A stretch of 64,000 bases of DNA from a virus. Lineage: Duplodnaviria; Caudoviricetes. The stretch's first letter is position 1. Each line of letters begins with the position of its first letter. Shown here piece after piece: positions 10,682 through 24,880 of the stretch. The notes beneath the pieces were generated by a model. That model did no database searches. It saw only the letters and a list, made by a program, of their open reading frames with translations, and was not told the DNA's origin. The stretch spans positions 1 to 64,000 of the IMG/VR virus record IMGVR_UViG_3300032296_004087; one strand, given 5' to 3'. The position numbers were made by a program, and so were the translations under genes.

Positions 10682-11758
10682 ATGACTATTGAGACGCTTA
10701 ATCGTTATTATGAAGATGGGTTGTTGTACAAACAAACTCATCCCACCCTTCCATTGACTATATGGAACTACACCGAGAAAGTTCAGTACGAAGGGTTGTG
10801 GGACGAGGTTACGGTTCAATGTAGAGGTCTTATAACTGAGAATACCACTGGTAAAATATTGGTTCGCCCCTTTAAAAAATTCTTTAACTACGAGGAGGTT
10901 ATTGGTAAGGAAGTAATCCCTTCCAAGGGCGATTATGTTTACATCCAAGAAAAAATGGATGGTTCTTTGGGTATTTTATTCAACTACGAAGACCAATGGA
11001 TTATGGCAACCCGTGGTTCATTTGCTTCTGAACAAGCAATCAAAGGTCTTGAGATTGTTAAATCAAAGTATTTTTTGGCTTCATGGTCAAAAGAATATGC
11101 CTACTTAGTGGAGATAATTTATGAAGCGAATCGAATTGTTGTTCGATACGATGAAGAAAAAATTGTGTTCTTATCCGTGGTTTTGAATGAGAGTTGGAAA
11201 TGGGAACCAACGGACGACACCGAACTACACTGGACTACCGCAAAGATGGTTCTACATGCTAACGGTGTTGAAGAAGATGATTTGGTTAAAACCGAACAAC
11301 ATTTCAATTTCTCTGATGAGTTATACAAGTCGTTGAAAGAAAAGAACGAGACCAATAAAGAAGGTTTTGTCCTTAGATTCCAACCTGGTAACTTCAGGAT
11401 GAAAATCAAGTTTGAAGAATATGTTCGTCTCCACAAGGTCATGACCAATCTTTCAACCACTGCGGTTTGGGAGGTATTGTCATCGGGTGGTAGTATGGAT
11501 AGTATTTTAACTCATGTTCCTGATGAATTCTACCGCAAAATCAAAGAGTATGAGAAAGAATTGATTATTCAGTTCAACCAACTTGAGGAGGAATACCAAA
11601 ACCACTTTGATTCAATAAAAGGATTGGGGATACGAAAGTTTTTTGCACTAAGTGCACGAATGTTTAAACATCCAACAATCTTATTTGCCATGTTGGATGG
11701 TAAGGATGTAGAACCAATCATTTGGAAATTAATCAAACCTGAGTTTCGTAAGTTGTAA
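10682..11758 (+). CDS. T4 Rnl1-like RNA ligase
   Basis: CRGLI, RPFKKFFNY, EKMDGSLG (adenylated Lys), ATRGSF, EGFVL, MKIKFEEY. Confidence 0.9.
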   Translation: MTIETLNRYYEDGLLYKQTHPTLPLTIWNYTEKVQYEGLWDEVTVQCRGLITENTTGKILVRPFKKFFNYEEVIGKEVIPSKGDYVYIQEKMDGSLGILFNYEDQWIMATRGSFASEQAIKGLEIVKSKYFLASWSKEYAYLVEIIYEANRIVVRYDEEKIVFLSVVLNESWKWEPTDDTELHWTTAKMVLHANGVEEDDLVKTEQHFNFSDELYKSLKEKNETNKEGFVLRFQPGNFRMKIKFEEYVRLHKVMTNLSTTAVWEVLSSGGSMDSILTHVPDEFYRKIKEYEKELIIQFNQLEEEYQNHFDSIKGLGIRKFFALSARMFKHPTILFAMLDGKDVEPIIWKLIKPEFRKL

Positions 11759-14625: not shown

Positions 14626-14973
14626 CTAAAGTAAAAGTTTTACTTGGTCCCCTTTTTTTATGTCAAGCTCATTTGCGGAACTACCTTGAATTTCAAGAAC
14701 TAATCTTCCTCTACCGCAATAACTATCACAATCTTCATCCTTACAAGGCTGGCAATTGTGATGTACTTTAGTTATCGTTGTTCCTTCAATAAAGATTATG
14801 TCTAAGGGGATTATACAGTTCTTCATCCAAAAACAACTGGTGTCTTCATCCATAACAAATAACATTCCGTTGAACTCATCAGTGAAAGTTCTGTTCATCA
14901 TTCCTTGAGCTTTGTCAAAATTACTTGTAACAACTTTTACATTAAAGATATTATCCCCTATTTTTAACCTCAT
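14626..14973 (-). CDS. DUF192 family protein
   Basis: QGMMNR...GMLFV...FWMKNCIIPLDIIFI...LVLEI. Confidence 0.85.
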   Translation of the reverse strand: MRLKIGDNIFNVKVVTSNFDKAQGMMNRTFTDEFNGMLFVMDEDTSCFWMKNCIIPLDIIFIEGTTITKVHHNCQPCKDEDCDSYCGRGRLVLEIQGSSANELDIKKGDQVKLLL

Positions 14974-14986
14974 AGTAATTATAAAT

Positions 14987-15412
14987 ATGAAAGAGAAGAT
15001 TTATGTTGGTGTTGTTGTAAAAGTTAATGACGAAGTTTTACTTTGTAAAAGGTCTACCAAAGCAACTTTGCCGGGTGTATGGTCCGTCCCTGCGGGTAGT
15101 GTTGAGAAAGGTGAAACCACAAAAGAAGCTGCTGTTAGAGAATTCCATGAGGAAACTGATATCATTATTTCCTCAGATGACTTAACCTTTGTTGGTTTGG
15201 TTCCTCGTACTTCAAGAGATGGTAGGTTTGTAAAAGGGTGGATGTATGTTTATCTTTTACAATCTAATCCGTATTTGTATCCCGATTTAGAAAATGCTAA
15301 AGATGGTCAAGAACACAGTGATTGTGGGTATTTTACTTACGAAGACATTATGGAAATGAACACTGGTGAATTTTTCAAAAAATTATTAATGGCAATTTTA
15401 AATAAAGTTTAA
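14987..15412 (+). CDS. NUDIX hydrolase
   Basis: Nudix box GSVEKGETTKEAAVREFHEETDI. Confidence 0.9.
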   Translation: MKEKIYVGVVVKVNDEVLLCKRSTKATLPGVWSVPAGSVEKGETTKEAAVREFHEETDIIISSDDLTFVGLVPRTSRDGRFVKGWMYVYLLQSNPYLYPDLENAKDGQEHSDCGYFTYEDIMEMNTGEFFKKLLMAILNKV

Positions 15413-15623
15413 CTTTTCAAAACAAAACATATATTTATTATCTCAACCGAGAGGTTGACACACCCCACAAAAAGTTCTACAGGTCATTTGACAAATCCTA
15501 AATTTGTTTTATCTTTGTAGAACACTCGGAAGAAGGACTTCGGTCCCTTTCACATCCCACAATGAGTGTTCGAGAGAACATAGTAGTTGTGGGATTTTTT
15601 TCGGGTGTCGGTCTTTAAAATAT

Positions 15624-15697
15624 TGCGGGATAGAGCAGTTGGTTAGCTTGCAAGGCTCATAACCTTGAGGTCGAAGGTTCGAATCCTTCTCCCGCCA
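15624..15697 (+). tRNA. tRNA-Met(CAT), initiator-like
   Basis: Cloverleaf with CAAGG-CTCATAA-CCTTG anticodon arm, GGTTCGAATCC T arm, 1:72 mismatch, A11-U24; CCA not encoded. Confidence 0.9.
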
Positions 15698-15719
15698 CTA
15701 ACTCCAAATTCAATTTCCC

Positions 15720-16307
15720 TTGAAATATTCTTACGTAGAAAATAAATTAATCGACGAGAAGGGAAATGCTGTGATGATGGATTGGGAAAAACCAATCATG
15801 AAATTGGTTTCCGAAATTATTTGTAAAAATAGGGGGAGAATCCTTAATATCGGGTTCGGAATGGGAATCGTTGACACTTACATTTCTGAACTACTACCAA
15901 TGGAACATGTTATCATTGAAAGGAATTTGGATGTCTACGAATATATGGTGGATAATGGTTGGTTGGAAAAACCAAACACAAAGGTAATTTTCGATTCGTG
16001 GCAGAATGTTTTGGATGACATAGGAATTTTCGATGGGATTTATTTGGATACATGGTGTGATGAAAGACTCCAATCAACACCTAAACTTCTTGAAAAAAAT
16101 TTGAAAGTTGGTGGTGTGTTTTCTATGTGGTACAATCAATCAGAATTTTCAGAAATAGTTCAAAAATTAGATGATAAGTACTCGGTGTCCTACATTCAAC
16201 TTCGTAACGATGAATTGATACCCTATTCACAACATCAAAATGGGGAAGTTTATATTGACCCCCACTTGCAAAATATAACCATCCCACAAATTATAAAAAA
16301 TTTTTAG
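15720..16307 (+). CDS. second Rmt2/GAMT-like methyltransferase
   Basis: AVMMDWEKPIM, ILNIGFGMGIVD, FDGIYLDTW; paralogue of 6465-7094. Confidence 0.8.
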   Translation: MKYSYVENKLIDEKGNAVMMDWEKPIMKLVSEIICKNRGRILNIGFGMGIVDTYISELLPMEHVIIERNLDVYEYMVDNGWLEKPNTKVIFDSWQNVLDDIGIFDGIYLDTWCDERLQSTPKLLEKNLKVGGVFSMWYNQSEFSEIVQKLDDKYSVSYIQLRNDELIPYSQHQNGEVYIDPHLQNITIPQIIKNF

Positions 16308-16429
16308 TTGGGTTGTTGACAAACTCGAATCTTTGATTATACTTTAACAAGAAGTCAGAAACACGGAATTCAAATCTCACCATCCGTAGTTAATAGAGTA
16401 AGTTTCTGATTTTGTTCTTTGAATTACAA

Positions 16430-17170
16430 AACAGGCGGTTTAGCGTCTTTAGATAACCCCAGCGATGGGACTAAAAGGGATGAAGGGTTTAGCGACCTTT
16501 GTAGTCTCGCAGGGCTTCGGTCTTGACAACTAAACAAAGTACCTACGGTGAAAACCCTGACGGCAAGTGCTGAGGGGGAGACATCATCCCGATTTTGTAG
16601 AGAATCGGGGTTGAGATGGAGACATCAACAGGAAAAGGTACAGGTGACGGTTTGAGACATCCCGCTGGGTGTTGTAAAGCTGAGTACCAGTCTGAGGGGT
16701 TACCACGGGTTTAAACCCACCGTAGTCCTGATTGACCGTCAACTGGCGGGTTGACAGAGAGGTGTGAAGCATTTCGTTCTCAAAAGGAATGGACCTTCTC
16801 CCGAAGCACATCTTTCATTCTTCTACAAAGCTACATATCAATGTGAATGATATTCAATGATACAAGCAAAAGTCTTCGGGCGTTGGTACTGAAAGGTGTC
16901 TAATCCTTCAGGTCATCGGACCAATGAAGGCACGGATAGGACCGCAAGTCCATCGGTGTTGATTGAGAAACTACTCGTGGGACGGCCATCCCTCAGTCAG
17001 CTCGCAAGGTTGAAGAGATAGGAGTATCAGTTGAGTTGGTGTCAACGAAAAGAGTGGTAGACTCAAATTACCGACATTGGTTGGTTACGACAGGCAACTG
17101 TTGTGGACCGAGTGGGGAAACCATAATCCCACCAAAGACTGACCACCTAAGCTCGTAGTCTCAGAGCATT
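16430..17170 (+). ncRNA. large ornate structured RNA, GOLLD-like
   Basis: ORF-free, GC-raised ~740 nt with many GNRA/UUCG hairpins and long-range pairings; own promoter, boxA-like TGTTCTTTGAA and terminator; close to a tRNA. The GOLLD name is inferred; boundaries approximate. Confidence 0.65.
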
Positions 17171-17175
17171 AGCCA

Positions 17176-17205
17176 AACCCCCTTCCGAAAGGTTGGGGGT
17201 TTTTT
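17176..17205 (+). terminator. intrinsic terminator of the large RNA
   Basis: aaacccccttcc gaaa ggttgggggttttt. Confidence 0.8.
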
Positions 17206-17229
17206 ATTTAAAGAGGTATTTATAAAAAT

Positions 17230-17691
17230 ATGAAACTTTTAAGTGTTCTTAAAGAAACAATTTTTGTTGTCGAAGAAATGGGCCCTGGCTCAGAACCTTA
17301 TGATTACTACAGAGAGGGTGAATACTTAGTTGAGTGGTGGACAGCCCCACATGTATATGAACAACGAGATGGTAAACCTCGAATACCTGATATAAGGATA
17401 TTCGATAAACTTATCGATTTATCAAGTCCCCTGATACTAACTAAGTATTTTTTTCAAGGGACAAAATTCAAGGAGATAAAACCTGAAGATAGTTTTCATC
17501 CGAGATTTATAATCAGAAAGATAAAAGGTAATTCAAGACCTCAAATGGTGGTGCAAATTGAAGAACTAAACTCTGAAAAGAAAAAAATCGTCCTGCAAAT
17601 ACTTTCTTTTTTAGATGTGGAGGGTCGTGATTTTTATTTCCTTGATAGAGGGGAGAAAACCTTGCGATTTATTATGGACTTAGAAGAATAA
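17230..17691 (+). CDS. hypothetical protein (MKLLSVLKE leader)
   Basis: ORF after TATTTAT at 17217. Confidence 0.7.
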   Translation: MKLLSVLKETIFVVEEMGPGSEPYDYYREGEYLVEWWTAPHVYEQRDGKPRIPDIRIFDKLIDLSSPLILTKYFFQGTKFKEIKPEDSFHPRFIIRKIKGNSRPQMVVQIEELNSEKKKIVLQILSFLDVEGRDFYFLDRGEKTLRFIMDLEE

Positions 17692-17743
17692 AATTTGGCA
17701 GTCTAAAATTTATTTTTTATATTTGTGTTGTAATTCGATAAAA

Positions 17744-18031
17744 ATGAAACACAACACCATTATCATCAAACACCCGAAGTTGGGTAAATTAGTTCATCAG
17801 ACTTTCGATAAGTCTGGTCAGTTTAAATTGTTTCTTATGGGTATTCATGGACCACTTGAATTGAAAACCGACCTGAATTTTTTCAATGGTGACGATTTTC
17901 TTCTCAATATACCTCACAAAATTCTCTGTGAATGTATTATTATAACTAAACATGTTGGAGAAAAGAAAGGAAATTCTTTGTCTGAACATTTCAAATCTCG
18001 AATGGAAGCCGAGGTAATCAAAGAGTCCTAA
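17744..18031 (+). CDS. hypothetical protein
   Basis: ORF after sigmaA promoter 17694-17725. Confidence 0.65.
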   Translation: MKHNTIIIKHPKLGKLVHQTFDKSGQFKLFLMGIHGPLELKTDLNFFNGDDFLLNIPHKILCECIIITKHVGEKKGNSLSEHFKSRMEAEVIKES

Positions 18032-18105
18032 CCTCTCTGTTAGGTGGTGGAGCGTCCAACAACCTGTTGGACCCAAGAAAGGTCAGTTAACTCTGACCTT
18101 TTTTA

Positions 18106-19420: not shown

Positions 19421-20668
19421 ATGAACACAAAAAAACCATCTGCTATAGTTTATGGTTGGCATAAATTGGGGGACACAATTCTTTTTTCTGATATCTATTG
19501 GGAAGAATATCTCCACGATGAAGTAAACTTATATTCATTACCATACACAGGAAAAGTGGTGGAAGATTATACACGATATAGACCTGATATAATATTATCA
19601 ATTGGCGAAGAAATTGAAATTCCTCATTTTCATTTGAAAAAAATTCATGTTCATGTGGATGAAATGTTACCTGACTTAGTTATTGCAAATATCATTGTTT
19701 GTCAAAGTGTTTTTAGACATTGCGAGTTTCCGAGACCAAGATTTTCTATTTTTACTCCAACTTACAAAACCAATGAAAGAATCGTCAGGGCTTACGAATC
19801 CTTAAAGAATCAGACAAATACTAATTGGGAATGGATTGTTTTGGATGATTCACCCGATGATGTGACATGGAGATTAATACAAGATATTGCGGCAAAAGAT
19901 TACCGAGTCAAACCTTTCAGATTATACCCATTGACTGGTGGTAATGTTGGATTGGCAAAACACCGAGCGGCTATGATGTGTGATGGTGATTGGTTAGTTG
20001 AACTTGACCACGACGACCATTTGGTTTCCAATGCGTTGGAGATTTCAAATGAGGCAATAAATAAATTTCCTGATGCAGGGTTCTTGTATAGTGACTGTTC
20101 TGAGTCTTACGAAGACGGTGAAATGAAGTATTATGACCATGATTGGTCAGGTAATTGGTACGCAAGAGAGGACAATTATTTTGATTTTGGTTATGCGGGA
20201 CACACATGGGCTGAAGTTGACGGTGAAAAAATATTGGCACACCATTACCCTGATGTTAACCCGTTGAGTATTCGTTTTAATATATCAATGCCAAACCATG
20301 TGAAAATGTGGAAAAGGGAAGTTTACCACCAAATTGGCGGACATAATAAGGCGATACCTGTTGCCGATGACTTAGAAATTTCTATTAAAACATTCCTTTA
20401 TACCCGAATGATTCATGTCAAGAAAGTTCTTTACCTTCAGAAAAACAATAGAAACAGTACTGTAGATAACAACTCTCAAGACATTAATCGTAGAGCCCGA
20501 CTAATTCGAGACCATTACGATAAAAGAATTCATGAAAGAATCAAGGAATTAGGATTTCATGATTGGAATTGGGATGAAGAGGCTGGGCACTCTCAGAAAT
20601 TCCAAAATAGTGTGCCCATAAGAAAATACTTCGAAGAAGAACAAATAATGAATTATATCTATGAATAA
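19421..20668 (+). CDS. glycosyltransferase family 2
   Basis: SIFTPTY, EWIVLDDS, VELDHDD, ADDLE. Confidence 0.9.
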   Translation: MNTKKPSAIVYGWHKLGDTILFSDIYWEEYLHDEVNLYSLPYTGKVVEDYTRYRPDIILSIGEEIEIPHFHLKKIHVHVDEMLPDLVIANIIVCQSVFRHCEFPRPRFSIFTPTYKTNERIVRAYESLKNQTNTNWEWIVLDDSPDDVTWRLIQDIAAKDYRVKPFRLYPLTGGNVGLAKHRAAMMCDGDWLVELDHDDHLVSNALEISNEAINKFPDAGFLYSDCSESYEDGEMKYYDHDWSGNWYAREDNYFDFGYAGHTWAEVDGEKILAHHYPDVNPLSIRFNISMPNHVKMWKREVYHQIGGHNKAIPVADDLEISIKTFLYTRMIHVKKVLYLQKNNRNSTVDNNSQDINRRARLIRDHYDKRIHERIKELGFHDWNWDEEAGHSQKFQNSVPIRKYFEEEQIMNYIYE

Positions 20669-21821
20669 AAAAACTAAAATTGTATTAAATGCTATGGTTG
20701 CCAATGAGGCGCGTACCATCACTCGAATGTTAGACTCAGTATATCAACATGTTGATTATTGGGTAATACAGGATAATGGTTCAACTGATGGAACACAAGA
20801 AATTATCAGAAATTTCTTTAAAGAAAAAAATATACCAGGATTTCTTTATGAAATCGAATGGCAATTTCCTGGTTGGAACAGAGACCATGCACTTCAAACT
20901 TGTTTAAAGACTGACCATGGTTGTGATTGGATTATTCGAATGGATGCTGATGAAAGACTTGAAATCGATGAAGATTTCGATTGGACTTTATTAGAAAATA
21001 TGGAAGTGGACTCTTGGAATATTATTGTTAGAAGTTTTAATACAAGATACTACCGCACATGGTTGTGGAATGCCAATCGTCCTTGGTTCTTTCAACATGA
21101 TAAACGACACGAAACAATTCACTTACCCGAAGTTGGTGAAGATTTCGAAAGAAGAGTTCTACCTGAAAGTTTCCGTCACATTGTGACCAACGATGGACAA
21201 ACATGGGCGGCTCCTCGTAAATTTCTCCGAGATGCTCTCGAATTAGAAATCGATAAAGTCGTTGGTAACACCGTATTAGAAGACCATTACCATTTGTGGT
21301 ATGTGGGTAAAAGTTATTCAGATTGTTATGGTAATCCTAACGAGTTACCATTCGGTAAAGACCACTCTGATGAATATGCACGAAGGGCAATTTTTTATTT
21401 TAATCATTTTCTAAGAGTATCACACAACTATTGGGAAACAGGAAAACCTGCACGAATCGATGAGATGTCATATACAACATTTTTGTTGATGGGTTCGGCA
21501 TACTCATTCCGAGGTGAATATGAAGAAGCTGAAAAATCATGGAATCAAGCGGAACAATTCGCACCTGGTAGAAATGAACACCTTATGTACCACGCTTTAT
21601 TCTTAGAGGATAATAATCGAATTCAAGAGGCTCTTGATTTGGTAAATCAAATGATGAACCCTGAAAGAAAAAATCCTTTTCCAACATATTGTTTTTTGAT
21701 TGAAGACCGATGTTACTTAGACACAGGTAAAAAAGAGTTAAATGAATGGAAAGATAGACTAACTCGTAAGTTGACTGAACCTATAATCAAAAACGAAGGT
21801 GTCACTTTCTCCTTTTCATAA
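20661..21821 (+). CDS. GT2-like glycosyltransferase with C-terminal TPR
   Basis: IQDNGSTDGT, RMDADE, HE motif; TPR-like helices. Confidence 0.85.
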   Translation: MNKKTKIVLNAMVANEARTITRMLDSVYQHVDYWVIQDNGSTDGTQEIIRNFFKEKNIPGFLYEIEWQFPGWNRDHALQTCLKTDHGCDWIIRMDADERLEIDEDFDWTLLENMEVDSWNIIVRSFNTRYYRTWLWNANRPWFFQHDKRHETIHLPEVGEDFERRVLPESFRHIVTNDGQTWAAPRKFLRDALELEIDKVVGNTVLEDHYHLWYVGKSYSDCYGNPNELPFGKDHSDEYARRAIFYFNHFLRVSHNYWETGKPARIDEMSYTTFLLMGSAYSFRGEYEEAEKSWNQAEQFAPGRNEHLMYHALFLEDNNRIQEALDLVNQMMNPERKNPFPTYCFLIEDRCYLDTGKKELNEWKDRLTRKLTEPIIKNEGVTFSFS

Positions 21822-22911
21822 AAAATACGATTACATAATTGTGGGCTCCGGTTTATTCGGGGCCACTTGTGCATATGAACTATCAAAAAAGTTCAAGTGT
21901 TTGGTAATAGATAAGCGTTTAACCATTGGAGGAAACTGCTACACCGAAAACTTGGATGGAATTCATATTCACAGATATGGAGCTCACATTTTTCATACCT
22001 CTGATAAAGACATATGGGAATGGGTGAATCAATTTGCGGAATTCCGACAATTTGTCAATTCACCTATAGCAAATTATAACGATGAGTTATATTCTCTCCC
22101 ATTTAATATGTGGACATTCCATCAATTGTGGGGAGTAAAAACTCCTGAGGAAGCTAAAGCAAAAATTGAGAGTCAAAAATATAAAGGTGCCATCACTAAC
22201 TTGGAAGAACAAGCTCGTTCAATGGTTGGTGATGACATCTATTTTAAACTTATCAAAGGGTATACTGAAAAACAATGGGGTAAAAAGTGTACAGAACTAC
22301 CAGCATCAATTATCAAAAGATTACCCGTTAGATTCACTTGGGATAACAATTATTTTAATGACAAATACCAAGGTATACCAATTGGTGGTTACACACAAAT
22401 CTTCGAAAAACTTCTCAGTGGTATTGAAGTTCACTTAGGCACGAATTTCTTTGAAAAAAGAGATTACTATGAATCAATATCGGATAAGATTATCTACACA
22501 GGACCTATTGATGAGTTCTATGACTATGAATTTGGTAAATTGGAATATAGAAGTCTTAAGTGGGAAAATACCTACATGCATACTGAAAGTTTTCAAGGAC
22601 ATCCTGTGGTTAATTACACTGATGATGAAACTCCTTACACACGGATTATTGAACACAAGTATTTTGACAATCAAAATCAAAAAAGAACTTATGTAAGTAA
22701 GGAGTTTCCATGTGATTATACGGGTGATAACGAACCCTATTATCCCATACGAGATGAGATTAATTCAGAAATGTATAGGAAGTATAAAGAACTTGGTGAA
22801 ATTTCTTTAAAATACATCTTTGGTGGTAGACTTGGGACTTATATGTACTATGACATGCATCAAGTGATTGGTCAAGCCTTAACAACGGTTAATAAGCTGA
22901 TTCGAACTTAA
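21799..22911 (+). CDS. glf: UDP-galactopyranose mutase
   Basis: IVGSGLFGA, IGGNCY, HRYGAHIFHT, YTEKQWG, EPYYP, GRLGTYMYYDM. Confidence 0.95.
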   Translation: MSLSPFHKKYDYIIVGSGLFGATCAYELSKKFKCLVIDKRLTIGGNCYTENLDGIHIHRYGAHIFHTSDKDIWEWVNQFAEFRQFVNSPIANYNDELYSLPFNMWTFHQLWGVKTPEEAKAKIESQKYKGAITNLEEQARSMVGDDIYFKLIKGYTEKQWGKKCTELPASIIKRLPVRFTWDNNYFNDKYQGIPIGGYTQIFEKLLSGIEVHLGTNFFEKRDYYESISDKIIYTGPIDEFYDYEFGKLEYRSLKWENTYMHTESFQGHPVVNYTDDETPYTRIIEHKYFDNQNQKRTYVSKEFPCDYTGDNEPYYPIRDEINSEMYRKYKELGEISLKYIFGGRLGTYMYYDMHQVIGQALTTVNKLIRT

Positions 22912-23677: not shown

Positions 23678-24880
23678 ATGGACCGAAAGATTGGCATTAT
23701 TGATGCAAACAATTTCTATGTAAGTTGTGAAAGGGTATTTAATCCAATTTCAATTGGGAGACCAACAGTTGTACTTTCAAACAACGATGGGTGTGTAATT
23801 GCTCGAAGTCAAGAAGCTAAAGATTTGGGTATTAAAATGGGGGAACCTTTTTTCCAAAGAAGAGACTTCATGGAAGAACATCGTTTTTGTGTTTACTCAT
23901 CAAATTACAATCTTTATGGTGATATGTCAGACCGAGTGATGGCGGTCATTAAAGAGTATTCTAAACAGGTTGAAGTTTATTCCATAGATGAGGCTTTTGT
24001 TGACTTCTCAAATATCCCCGATAAAGAATTAATACCAACTTTGGAACTAATTCAATATGAGGTCAAACAACGAGTAGGTATACCGGTATCTATTGGCGTA
24101 GGTCCCAACAAAACTTTAGCCAAATTAACTTCTCATATTGCCAAAAAACAACCTTCCTATAAAGGGATTTGTAGTTATTGGGAATTCAAAAACTTTAGGA
24201 ATGACTTGTACGAAATACCCATTGATGAAATTTGGGGAATAGGTAGAAAATGGTCAAAGAAATTCAAAGAGGGTGGTGTTGAATCGATAGGTCAATTTGT
24301 AATGTTGTCTGATACCATAGTAAAAAAAATGACTAATGTGAATGGGCTTAGGGCAAAAGTAGAAATACTAGGGATGTATTGTCATCCCGTGAAACCCATA
24401 CCTAAATTCAAAAGAAATATTGCCTCAGCTCGTTCATTTGGGCAAGATGTTGACCAACTTGATGACATCTCACAAGCTATGTACACTTACATTAAAAATG
24501 GTGTGAGAAAAATGGATGAAAGTGGCGCGGAAACAAATCGAGTAACTATTTTTGTGAGTGGTAACATACACAAGGGTCAAAAACATTCCTCGAGTAAACA
24601 ACTATATCTTCAACAACAAACAAAAGATGTTGATGAAATTTGGAGTCAAATATTCCCACATCTTCAAAACTTATTTGAAAGTGGTAAAAAGTATAAAAAG
24701 TGTGGGGTAATTTTTCATAATCTAATTCCTGATACTCAAACACAAACAACTTTATTTACCGAAGAGGTTAAAATTGTTCAACCACCTGTTTCATTAACAA
24801 ATAAATGGGAAATGAGACAAGATTTTAAAACTCAACATTATACAACTTCTTGGGAAGAAATTCCTGAAGTGTTTGTTTAG
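23678..24880 (+). CDS. umuC: Y-family DNA polymerase V catalytic subunit
   Basis: [44 protein letters not shown]-terminal YTTSW. Confidence 0.95.

What the first reader, a model, noticed from the sequence alone, without database searches (positions are those of the whole stretch)
16310..17205. ~740-nt ornate non-coding RNA (GOLLD-like) with boxA-like leader
Seen: ORF-free, GC-raised block with tetraloop hairpins (CAGGGC-TTCG-GTCTTG, GATG-GAGA-CATC, GGACC-GCAA-GTCC, CAGCTC-GCAA-GGTTG, ACGACAG-GCAA-CTGTTGT). Long-range complements: 16476-16486/16812-16822, 16497-16504/16823-16830, AGTCTT 16871/AAGACT 17135 and TGAGAC 16653/GTCTCA 17158; some cross, implying pseudoknots or alternative folds. It has TTGACA-N16-TATACT upstream, TGTTCTTTGAA (rRNA boxA-like) at 16413 and a terminator. 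Known: GOLLD and ROOL are giant RNAs found in phages, often near tRNAs, with unknown function; both have been reported to form multimeric RNA cages. Inference: a GOLLD member or new class, transcribed with Nus antitermination.
Basis: partly seen in the sequence, partly recalled or inferred. Interest (0 to 1): 0.75.

Follow-up and report, generated by a model that had tools for sequence, protein, structure and literature searches.

The report
GOLLD RNA gene with boxA leader
This is a gene for GOLLD RNA, a known giant phage RNA that builds RNA-only cages, in a lake phage; it is ordinary as a family member, but its transcript starts with the same short signal that bacteria use to protect ribosomal RNA transcription.

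Summary
Window 16757-17167 (+) matches Rfam GOLLD (RF02032) over the whole model at 301.8 bits, against a gathering score of 150. So the RNA is real but belongs to a known family. The upstream half, 16433-16755, is the GOLLD 5' domain. Its local fold (92 pairs, 17 helices) is 98.7% paired in 13 relatives, 39 pairs have compensatory changes, and 0 of 500 shuffles reach that.

Its four long-range pairings are not: covariation 0.086 against 0.089 in shuffles.

The boxA idea holds up better than expected. GTTCTTT stands at the start of the transcript in 34 of 34 distinct low-GC GOLLD relatives. The exact same heptamer sits in the 16S leader or the 16S-23S spacer of 8 of 11 bacterial rrn operons read.

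Contigs of 4 of 4 lake metatranscriptome runs laid cover the RNA body.

Verdict: a new member of a known family. The rrn-type antitermination leader is probable (about 0.5) and I found it in no paper that I could search.

The parts
16316..16343 (+). GOLLD promoter: -35 TTGACA (16316-16321), 16-nt spacer, -10 TATACT (16338-16343). The transcription start is inferred near 16350.
   Evidence: 11 of 12 positions match. Conserved in position in all 8 sequences of A1 and upstream of the motif in all leader types.
16351..16413 (+). 5'-terminal leader hairpin. It is an expanded version of the short hairpin found in relatives and ends directly before the boxA-like element.
   Evidence: -14.9 kcal/mol, z -3.5, 0 of 200 shuffles as stable. 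A hairpin is present in 8 of 10 leaders folded, with different complementary stems, and absent in the L085 and L088 types.
16414..16424 (+). boxA-like element GTTCTTTGAAT
   Evidence: GTTCTTT at this place in 34 of 34 distinct low-GC GOLLD relatives; 0.038 hits expected per 241-nt window; the same heptamer in the leader or spacer of 8 of 11 rrn operons. B. subtilis rrn has a 5' hairpin followed by a boxA-like element that binds NusB.
16433..16755 (+). GOLLD 5' domain (17 local helices)
   Evidence: 92 pairs, 98.7% paired, 39 pairs with compensatory changes, 0 of 500 shuffles as high. nhmmer finds homologues of this half in all 34 distinct low-GC relatives.
16757..17167 (+). GOLLD conserved 3' domain (the part covered by Rfam model RF02032)
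   Evidence: 301.8 bits, E 2.2e-85, model positions 1-416 of 416; the only copy in the 117 kb record.
17182..17205 (+). Intrinsic terminator: GC-rich stem with a GAAA loop, then a T run
   Evidence: Stem changes in relatives keep the pairing by eye (A1 and A2).
15624..15698 (+). tRNA-Met (CAT), the tRNA neighbour typical of GOLLD. Its own leader has a promoter at 15488-15515, a hairpin with a U run at 15554-15601, and a boxA-like GGTCTTTAAA at 15610-15619.
   Evidence: G(T/G)TCTTTAAAATA lies 14-16 nt before this tRNA in 10 of 10 distinct relatives, which form one lineage.
15720..16307 (+). 195-aa ORF lying between tRNA-Met and the GOLLD promoter in this phage. In L050, L049 and L052 the tRNA directly abuts the promoter. 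It resembles a class I SAM-dependent methyltransferase.
   Evidence: Atlas score 0.99, 235 of 256 features shared, clusters carrying PF27704. No hit in the older Pfam copy or in PHROGs.

Best explanation
The block is a complete transcription unit for a GOLLD RNA in a large lake phage. Shown: a full-length GOLLD 3' domain (16757-17167) and a covariation-supported GOLLD 5' domain (16433-16755). Also shown: its own near-consensus promoter, a terminator, a tRNA-Met neighbour, and presence of the RNA body in contigs of lake metatranscriptome libraries. Inferred from the family (cryo-EM of other members): the roughly 735-nt RNA folds into two domains and self-assembles without protein into a closed multimeric cage, a 12-mer or 14-mer in the solved members. 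What the cage does is unknown. Inferred here, at about 0.5: the transcript begins with a small hairpin followed at once by GUUCUUUGAA, which is the boxA of bacterial rrn operons. The nascent boxA would load host NusB-S10 onto RNA polymerase and build an rrn-type antitermination complex. That complex would carry the polymerase through about 800 nt of untranslated, hairpin-rich RNA without Rho-dependent or hairpin-induced termination, and would help the RNA fold as it is made, as it does for rRNA.
For: GOLLD identity: (301.8 bits against a gathering score of 150, whole model); 205 predicted pairs, 80 with compensatory changes; 5' domain, 0 of 500 shuffles as high; tRNA neighbour and phage context (tail fibre, RNA ligase). 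Expression: contigs of 4 of 4 RNA-library runs laid, from 4 studies, cover 16433-17174. boxA: GTTCTTT in 20 of 21 viral GOLLD loci and in 34 of 34 distinct low-GC GOLLDs from the viral and metagenome collections. It always lies just downstream of a promoter, while its flanks fall into at least 3 unalignable types and the background gives 0.038 hits per window. A hairpin ends 2-3 nt before the motif in 8 of 10 leaders folded. That is the layout reported for B. subtilis rrn operons, whose boxA-like AUGAUCUUUGAAA binds NusB (passages read). Exact GTTCTTT stands in the 16S leader or the 16S-23S spacer of 8 of 11 rrn operons read, including GTTCTTTGAATA in a Prevotella leader.
Against: No experiment bears on this locus. 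The host is unknown (searches gave nothing), so its own boxA could not be compared. Cage formation is inferred from other family members only. Against the boxA function: the motif alone is not enriched in the window. One high-GC GOLLD lineage (L095, L150, L098) lacks it. Five of the phage's six tRNA genes lack it within 60 nt. An invariant heptamer could equally be a structural or processing element of the RNA. The 34 relatives share ancestry and are not independent samples. Three of the 11 rrn operons read have a different heptamer or none. RNA-library contigs do not prove transcription, because DNA can be present in such libraries.
Confidence: 0.9

Rival explanations
1. The RNA is GOLLD, but GUUCUUUGAA is not a Nus-factor boxA. 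It could be part of the mature RNA (a tertiary or inter-subunit contact), a nuclease processing site that sets the mature 5' end, or, together with the hairpin before it, a U-rich pause or attenuator.
For: The heptamer never varies, so covariation cannot exclude a structural role. In the window the hairpin is followed by UUUUGUUCUUU, which looks like a terminator. The same hairpin-plus-U-run layout precedes the tRNA-Met motif. One GOLLD lineage does without the motif.
Against: No conserved complementary partner for the motif turned up in the consensus fold of 13 relatives; only a trivial 3-bp pairing was predicted. A plain U tract would not keep G and C invariant in 34 of 34 sequences. The L085 and L088 leader types have the motif without any hairpin. 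Identity with the rrn leader and spacer element in 8 of 11 operons would then be a coincidence.
Confidence: 0.35
2. The RNA adopts the reader's long-range pairings (16476-16486 with 16812-16822; 16497-16504 with 16823-16830; 16871-16876 with 17135-17140; 16653-16658 with 17158-17163) as pseudoknots or alternative folds.
For: The complementarities exist in this sequence. The third and fourth lie in highly conserved segments. The cryo-EM paper reports that the last loop (L27) pairs with nearby elements.
Against:: no measure exceeds the shuffled partners. R1, R2 and R4 have uncompensated changes in 3 to 8 of 13 sequences at several pairs. The end pair of R3 is broken in 5 of 12. The strands involved are occupied by covarying local helices or by the first stem of the Rfam structure.
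Confidence: 0.05
3. It is a new class of ornate RNA that only resembles GOLLD, or is not an RNA gene at all.
For: The 5' half lies outside the Rfam model.
Against: Full-length match at twice the family threshold. The 5' half is homologous in all low-GC GOLLD relatives found and covaries as RNA. No ORF longer than 75 aa. No other large-RNA family reached its gathering score in the window.
Confidence: 0.02

Closest known systems
GOLLD RNA (Rfam RF02032; Weinberg et al. 2009; cryo-EM of env-38 and Streptococcus agalactiae GOLLD)
   Same: Full-length 3' domain match. A structured 5' domain of about 320 nt. Total size about 735 nt for the body and about 855 nt for the transcript. Phage context. A tRNA-Met neighbour, as described for env-38. 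Lake origin.
   Different: It lacks the extra hairpin that most relatives carry between the boxA-like element and the first 5'-domain helix. A methyltransferase-like ORF separates it from the tRNA. No tRNA is embedded in the linker. The oligomeric state is untested.
rrn antitermination leader (boxA, with a preceding hairpin; NusB-S10, NusA, NusG, SuhB, S4 in E. coli)
   Same: A small 5' hairpin followed at once by G(U/A/C)UCUUU(G/A)AA, as reported for B. subtilis rrn. The heptamer is identical to that in the rrn leaders and spacers of Prevotella, Thiomicrorhabdus, Ralstonia, Mycoplasmopsis and several Bacillota. The product is a long untranslated structured RNA.
   Different: It sits on a phage gene for a non-ribosomal RNA. 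No boxC was looked for. Binding of Nus factors is untested. The host is unknown.
Lambda nut sites (boxA then boxB, with the N protein)
   Same: A phage use of boxA for processive antitermination (recalled, not from a call).
   Different: The order is hairpin then boxA, as in rrn, not boxA then boxB. No N-like protein was identified. The unit is a single RNA gene, not an operon of delayed-early genes.
ROOL RNA
   Same: A large ornate phage-associated RNA near tRNAs that also forms cages.
   Different: Unrelated sequence and fold. No ROOL match reached its gathering score in the window.

Membership tests
GOLLD RNA (RF02032) | Covariance-model score above the curated gathering score over the conserved 3' domain | tested here: met
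   301.8 bits against 150, model positions 1-416 of 416, E 2.2e-85. Repeated.
GOLLD RNA (RF02032) | Helices of the 3' domain kept by compensatory changes among relatives | tested here: met
   205 predicted pairs over the whole RNA, 80 with a change on both sides. Many lie in columns 455-878, the 3' domain.
GOLLD RNA (RF02032) | A less conserved but structured 5' domain, giving a total length of about 700-850 nt | tested here: met
   17 helices, 39 of 92 pairs compensatory. The body is 16433-17167, 735 nt.
GOLLD RNA (RF02032) | Phage or prophage context, often beside tRNA genes | tested here: met
   (IMG/VR virus record). (tail fibre, RNA ligase). (tRNA-Met 0.7 kb upstream, directly adjacent in relatives).
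GOLLD RNA (RF02032) | Protein-free assembly into a closed multimeric cage | not testable with these tools
   Known for env-38 (14-mer) and the S. agalactiae GOLLD (12-mer). A self-complementary GGCC at 16985-16988 is GGCC or TGCA in 11 of 13 relatives, in the manner of the symmetric kissing loops described. I could not map it to the published loop names.
GOLLD RNA (RF02032) | Expressed as a discrete RNA | tested here: inconclusive
   contigs of 4 of 4 RNA-library runs cover 16433-17174. Contigs cannot show ends, strand or level, and DNA can be present in such libraries.
rrn-type boxA antitermination leader | boxA sequence in the nascent RNA shortly after the promoter | tested here: met
   GTTCTTTGAA lies 71 nt after the -10 box. 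The same heptamer occupies rrn leader or spacer positions in 8 of 11 operons.
rrn-type boxA antitermination leader | Conservation of boxA among homologous units while the flanks diverge | tested here: met
   34 of 34 distinct low-GC GOLLDs, with at least 3 unalignable flank types. One high-GC lineage lacks it.
rrn-type boxA antitermination leader | Binding of NusB-S10 and boxA-dependent read-through | not testable with these tools
The host is unknown.
   only GOLLD and tRNA reached their gathering scores in the 64 kb window.

The most novel reading that the evidence does not exclude
GOLLD genes, and the tRNA-Met beside them, are transcribed as if they were ribosomal RNA. A 5' hairpin plus a host-type boxA recruits the Nus antitermination and chaperone complex. 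The phage thereby borrows the cell's rRNA-making machinery to make, fold and perhaps assemble an RNA cage. The leader would be a defining, so far undescribed part of the low-GC GOLLD gene, and it would give a first experimental handle on GOLLD biogenesis.
Probability: 0.45. Interest if true: 0.6.

Novelty: new member of a known kind. Interest (0 to 1): 0.4.

Why it matters
As a GOLLD gene this locus adds little: the family has been known since 2009 and lake phages are its name-giving source. The useful result concerns how it is made. Every low-GC GOLLD found here starts with the heptamer that marks rrn leaders and spacers in several bacterial phyla. That turns a vague question, how a phage produces and folds an 800-nt cage-forming RNA, into simple tests: NusB-S10 binding, boxA mutants and read-through reporters. 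It also suggests that boxA scanning could help find further untranslated structured RNA genes in phages. In two searches no paper held both 'GOLLD' and 'boxA' (0 papers), and the four papers holding 'GOLLD' and 'antitermination' (three read at the matching passages, the fourth a preprint of one of them) do not connect the two. The original GOLLD paper and the cryo-EM supplements could not be read.

Tried and rejected
1. blastn of the locus against cultured phage records found no match.

2. Host search.
- Two genome contigs pattern scans gave 0 and 3 hits. None of the 3 was a GOLLD.
- tblastn with ORF 23678-24880 found only Y-family polymerases below 40% identity, spread over many hosts.
- The host therefore stays unknown.

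3. The 15-mer scan of viral contigs gave 83 stretches. Only 8 of them are GOLLD relatives by nhmmer; the rest are chance matches.

4. Of the 45 distinct loci with the core pattern, 8 are chance matches without a GOLLD. I dropped them from the tally.

5. Literature searches with motif strings returned mostly primer tables. Only the mycoplasma spacer primer was of use. A search for a Bacteroidota boxA gave nothing relevant.

6. I tested whether boxA precedes all tRNAs of the phage, and it does not. Only the tRNA-Met next to GOLLD has it within 60 nt. One tRNA-Leu has GGTCTTTGAA 183 nt upstream.

7. Laid RNA-library contigs gave no cover on the flanking ORFs (15764-16400 and 17220-18100) or on the leader. 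The first contig pieces start at 16433-16450.

8. A pairing of the last loop (AGUCU, 17157-17161) with AGACU (17136-17140) was considered because of the published L27 contacts. It is invariant apart from uncompensated changes, so it remains untestable here.

9. Papers not held: Weinberg 2009 and Morgado 2020.

Full report
**What is there**

The Rfam scan of the whole window gives two matches at gathering level. One is GOLLD (RF02032) at 16757-17167 on the + strand: 301.8 bits against a gathering score of 150, E 2.2e-85, covering model positions 1-416 of 416. The other is a tRNA at 15624-15697. ARAGORN calls the tRNA tRNA-Met (CAT), 15624-15698.

The window is the first 64 kb of a 117,135-base IMG/VR virus record that CheckV rates 49% complete. 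The record holds one GOLLD copy. Neighbouring and other ORFs are phage-like:
- a peptidoglycan-binding protein, a NUDIX hydrolase, glycosyltransferases and UDP-galactopyranose mutase;
- a collagen-like tail fibre, a T4 Rnl1-like RNA ligase and a Y-family polymerase.

So the finding is a real RNA gene of a known family in a large tailed phage.

**Checking the observation**

- The block holds no ORF longer than 75 aa.
- GC rises to 0.44-0.51, against 0.31-0.36 in the flanks.
- TTGACA-N16-TATACT lies at 16316-16343 and matches 11 of 12 consensus positions. A terminator stem at 17182-17199 is followed by a T run.
- TGTTCTTTGAA is at 16413-16423.

**The 5' half**

The Rfam model covers only the conserved 3' domain. 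To judge the rest I collected relatives.
- A 15-mer scan of viral contigs gave 83 stretches, of which 8 are GOLLD relatives by nhmmer in both halves.
- A more specific core pattern gave 21 viral stretches. All 13 new ones scanned are full-length GOLLDs at 180.8-306.9 bits. One further stretch, L098, is cut and scored nothing.
- The same pattern gave 52 metagenome stretches.

An alignment of 13 distinct sequences, running from the boxA-like element to the terminator (A2), folds into 205 consensus pairs, 80 of them with a change on both sides.

The 5' domain alone (window 16433-16755) has 92 pairs in 17 helices:
- 98.7% of cells are paired.
- 39 pairs have compensatory changes.
- The covariation score is 0.323 against 0.141 in shuffles, and 0 of 500 shuffles reach any of the five measures.
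- Sliding the partner by one to three columns drops pairing to 32-49%.

One caveat: the structure was predicted on the same alignment, which favours it.

**The long-range pairings**

The four complementarities exist in this sequence. Counted over the 13 relatives they behave like chance:
- 79.2% paired against 78.8% in shuffles;
- covariation 0.086 against 0.089, with 327 of 500 shuffles at least as high.

R1 (16476-16486 with 16812-16822) and R2 (16497-16504 with 16823-16830) have unpaired cells in 3 to 8 of 13 sequences at most positions. R4 (16653-16658 with 17158-17163) is broken in 3 of 12 at two positions. R3 (16871-16876 with 17135-17140) never varies except at its end pair, which is broken in 5 of 12.

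The strands concerned sit in covarying local helices or in the first stem of the Rfam structure. I therefore reject them as structure. R3 and the pairing of the last loop remain untestable by covariation.

**The leader**

This is the part that went beyond expectation. In alignment A1 (8 sequences with flanks) the promoter is conserved in position. It is followed by a short hairpin of variable sequence and then by an invariant GTTCTTT.

Counts of the motif:
- GTTCTTT occurs 343-431 nt upstream of the 3' domain in 20 of 21 viral GOLLD loci.
- With the metagenome loci, 74 loci carry the core pattern, 62 have at least 650 nt upstream, and 45 are distinct.
- 34 of the 45 carry the motif at the expected place. 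These are exactly the 34 with strong nhmmer matches to both GOLLD halves.
- Of the 11 without it, 8 are chance pattern matches with no GOLLD.
- The other 3 (L095, L150 and the cut L098) are one nearly identical high-GC lineage.

So the tally is 34 of 34 low-GC GOLLDs and 0 of 1 high-GC lineage.

Further points on the leader:
- The background rate of the heptamer in the same loci is 89 hits in 564,586 nt, or 0.038 per 241-nt window. The flanks of the motif fall into at least 3 unalignable types.
- Eight of 10 leaders folded have a hairpin ending 2-3 nt before the motif, with different complementary stems. The window's is an expanded one: 16351-16413, -14.9 kcal/mol, z -3.5.
- The L085 and L088 types have none. 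In L085 the motif starts 9 nt after the -10 box.
- The motif by itself is not enriched in the window: 3 matches against 1.2 expected.

**Is it boxA?**

[quoted passage not shown] Immediately after it comes a boxA-like AUGAUCUUUGAAA that binds NusB. The E. coli consensus is UGCUCUUUAACA.

I then read real rrn operons. I took a 16S gene from a genome already held and used it to find rrn operons on annotated plasmid and chromid records, then fetched nine of those. Exact GTTCTTT stands in the 500 nt before 16S or the 900 nt after it in 8 of 11 operons read:

| Organism | Position | Sequence |
|---|---|---|
| Thiomicrorhabdus | leader -195, and twice in the spacer | GTTCTTTAAAAA |
| Prevotella | leader -173 | GTTCTTTGAATA (window: GTTCTTTGAATTA) |
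| Priestia, Listeria, Lactiplantibacillus | spacer | GTTCTTTGAAAACTAGATAA |
| Clostridioides | spacer | GTTCTTTACGAA |
| Mycoplasmopsis | leader -48 and spacer | GTTCTTTGAAAACT |
| Ralstonia | leader -175 and spacer | GTTCTTTAACAA |

The other three:
- Sphingomonas has GCTCTTTC.
- Aliarcobacter has GATCTTTAAAAA.
- The acidobacterial operon showed nothing.

A standard mycoplasma spacer primer reads the same.

The GOLLD leader element is therefore identical in sequence to the element at the two canonical boxA positions of rrn operons in several phyla. That it acts as boxA on the phage transcript is an inference. I put it at about 0.5.

**The tRNA neighbour**

In L050, L049 and L052 the tRNA-Met abuts the GOLLD promoter. 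In the window a 195-aa ORF lies between them.

The tRNA has its own promoter (15488-15515), a long hairpin with a U run, and GGTCTTTAAAATATT directly before its 5' end. G(T/G)TCTTTAAAATA lies 14-16 nt before this tRNA in 10 of 10 distinct relatives, which are one lineage. The other five tRNAs of the record lack it within 60 nt.

**Expression**

Twenty public runs hold the stretch or part of it. Six of them are on record as RNA, from four studies of lake or fresh water. Contigs of the 4 of 4 RNA runs laid cover 16433-17174. Contigs cannot give ends, strand or level, and DNA can be present in RNA libraries, so this is only a hint of expression.

**How it most likely works**

- Shown: gene identity, fold, promoter, terminator and conservation of the leader.
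- Inferred from the family (passages read): two-domain folding and protein-free assembly into a closed cage, a 14-mer for env-38 and a 12-mer for the S. agalactiae RNA. The function of the cage is unknown. According to a secondary source, GOLLD accumulates in lytic growth of an L. brevis prophage and is dispensable for phage production.
- Inferred here: boxA loads NusB-S10 and builds an rrn-type complex that shields the long untranslated transcript and aids its folding.

**Novelty**

The RNA is a new member of a known family. No paper in the searchable library holds both 'GOLLD' and 'boxA' (0 papers). Four hold 'GOLLD' and 'antitermination'. The three I read at the matching passages do not connect them, and the fourth is the preprint of one of those.

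I could not read Weinberg 2009, Morgado 2020 or the supplements of the cryo-EM paper, which hold the construct sequences and the GOLLD alignment. Any of these may already show or mention the 5' motif.

Noticed in passing
L166:6446-6678 (+), which is 115445-115677 of the phage record, outside the window: A 233-nt stretch directly upstream of a tRNA cluster matches the RNase P RNA clan below threshold: RF00373, 35.4 bits against a gathering score of 84, E 1.5e-08 on the 551-nt stretch. It aligns over the whole model, including the GAGGAAAcUC and ACAGAA..GGUUA blocks and the closing helices. This is a possible reduced phage-encoded RNase P RNA.
   Followed up: partly
window 15720-16307 (+): A 195-aa ORF lies between tRNA-Met and the GOLLD promoter in this phage. 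In L050, L049 and L052 the two abut. There was no hit in the Pfam copy or PHROGs used. The protein atlas places it with phage class I SAM-dependent methyltransferases carrying PF27704 (score 0.99; 13-18% of members in some clusters also carry the rRNA adenine dimethylase family). Whether it methylates RNA is open.
   Followed up: partly
L041, L090, L085, L088, L103, L115, L148: leaders as printed: In most GOLLD leader types the -10 region reads TAnnTTTG (TATCTTTG, TAGATTTG, TAACTTTG) and the -35 region holds TTTG. I recall this as the Bacteroidota promoter consensus; that is recalled, not from a call. Together with 34.7% GC and a Prevotella rrn leader boxA whose first 11 nt equal the window's motif, it hints at Bacteroidota hosts for many lake and marine GOLLD phages. 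The window's own promoter is closer to the sigma-70 consensus.
   Followed up: no
genome 116625-116808 (L166:7626-7809), outside the window: GGTCTTTGAAATG lies 183 nt upstream of a tRNA-Leu, with about 150 nt of GC-richer sequence of unknown nature in between. No Rfam family matched it at E 0.01 or better.
   Followed up: partly
window 10682-11758 (+) and 14912-15412 (+): There is a T4 Rnl1-like RNA ligase (phrog_562, E 8e-63) and a NUDIX hydrolase. They sit in the same 6 kb as the tRNA-Met and GOLLD, a cluster of RNA-related functions.
   Followed up: no
window 19421-22911 (+): Two family-2 glycosyltransferases and a UDP-galactopyranose mutase (Glf, E 6.5e-77) lie in a row. This is a phage-borne galactofuranose glycan module.
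   Followed up: no
window 16985-16988 (alignment A2 columns about 684-689): The loop ACGGCCAU holds a self-complementary GGCC. This 4-mer is GGCC in 9 and TGCA in 2 of 13 relatives, and not self-complementary in the other 2. That is the behaviour described for symmetric inter-subunit kissing loops of GOLLD. The mapping to the published loop names was not possible.
   Followed up: partly
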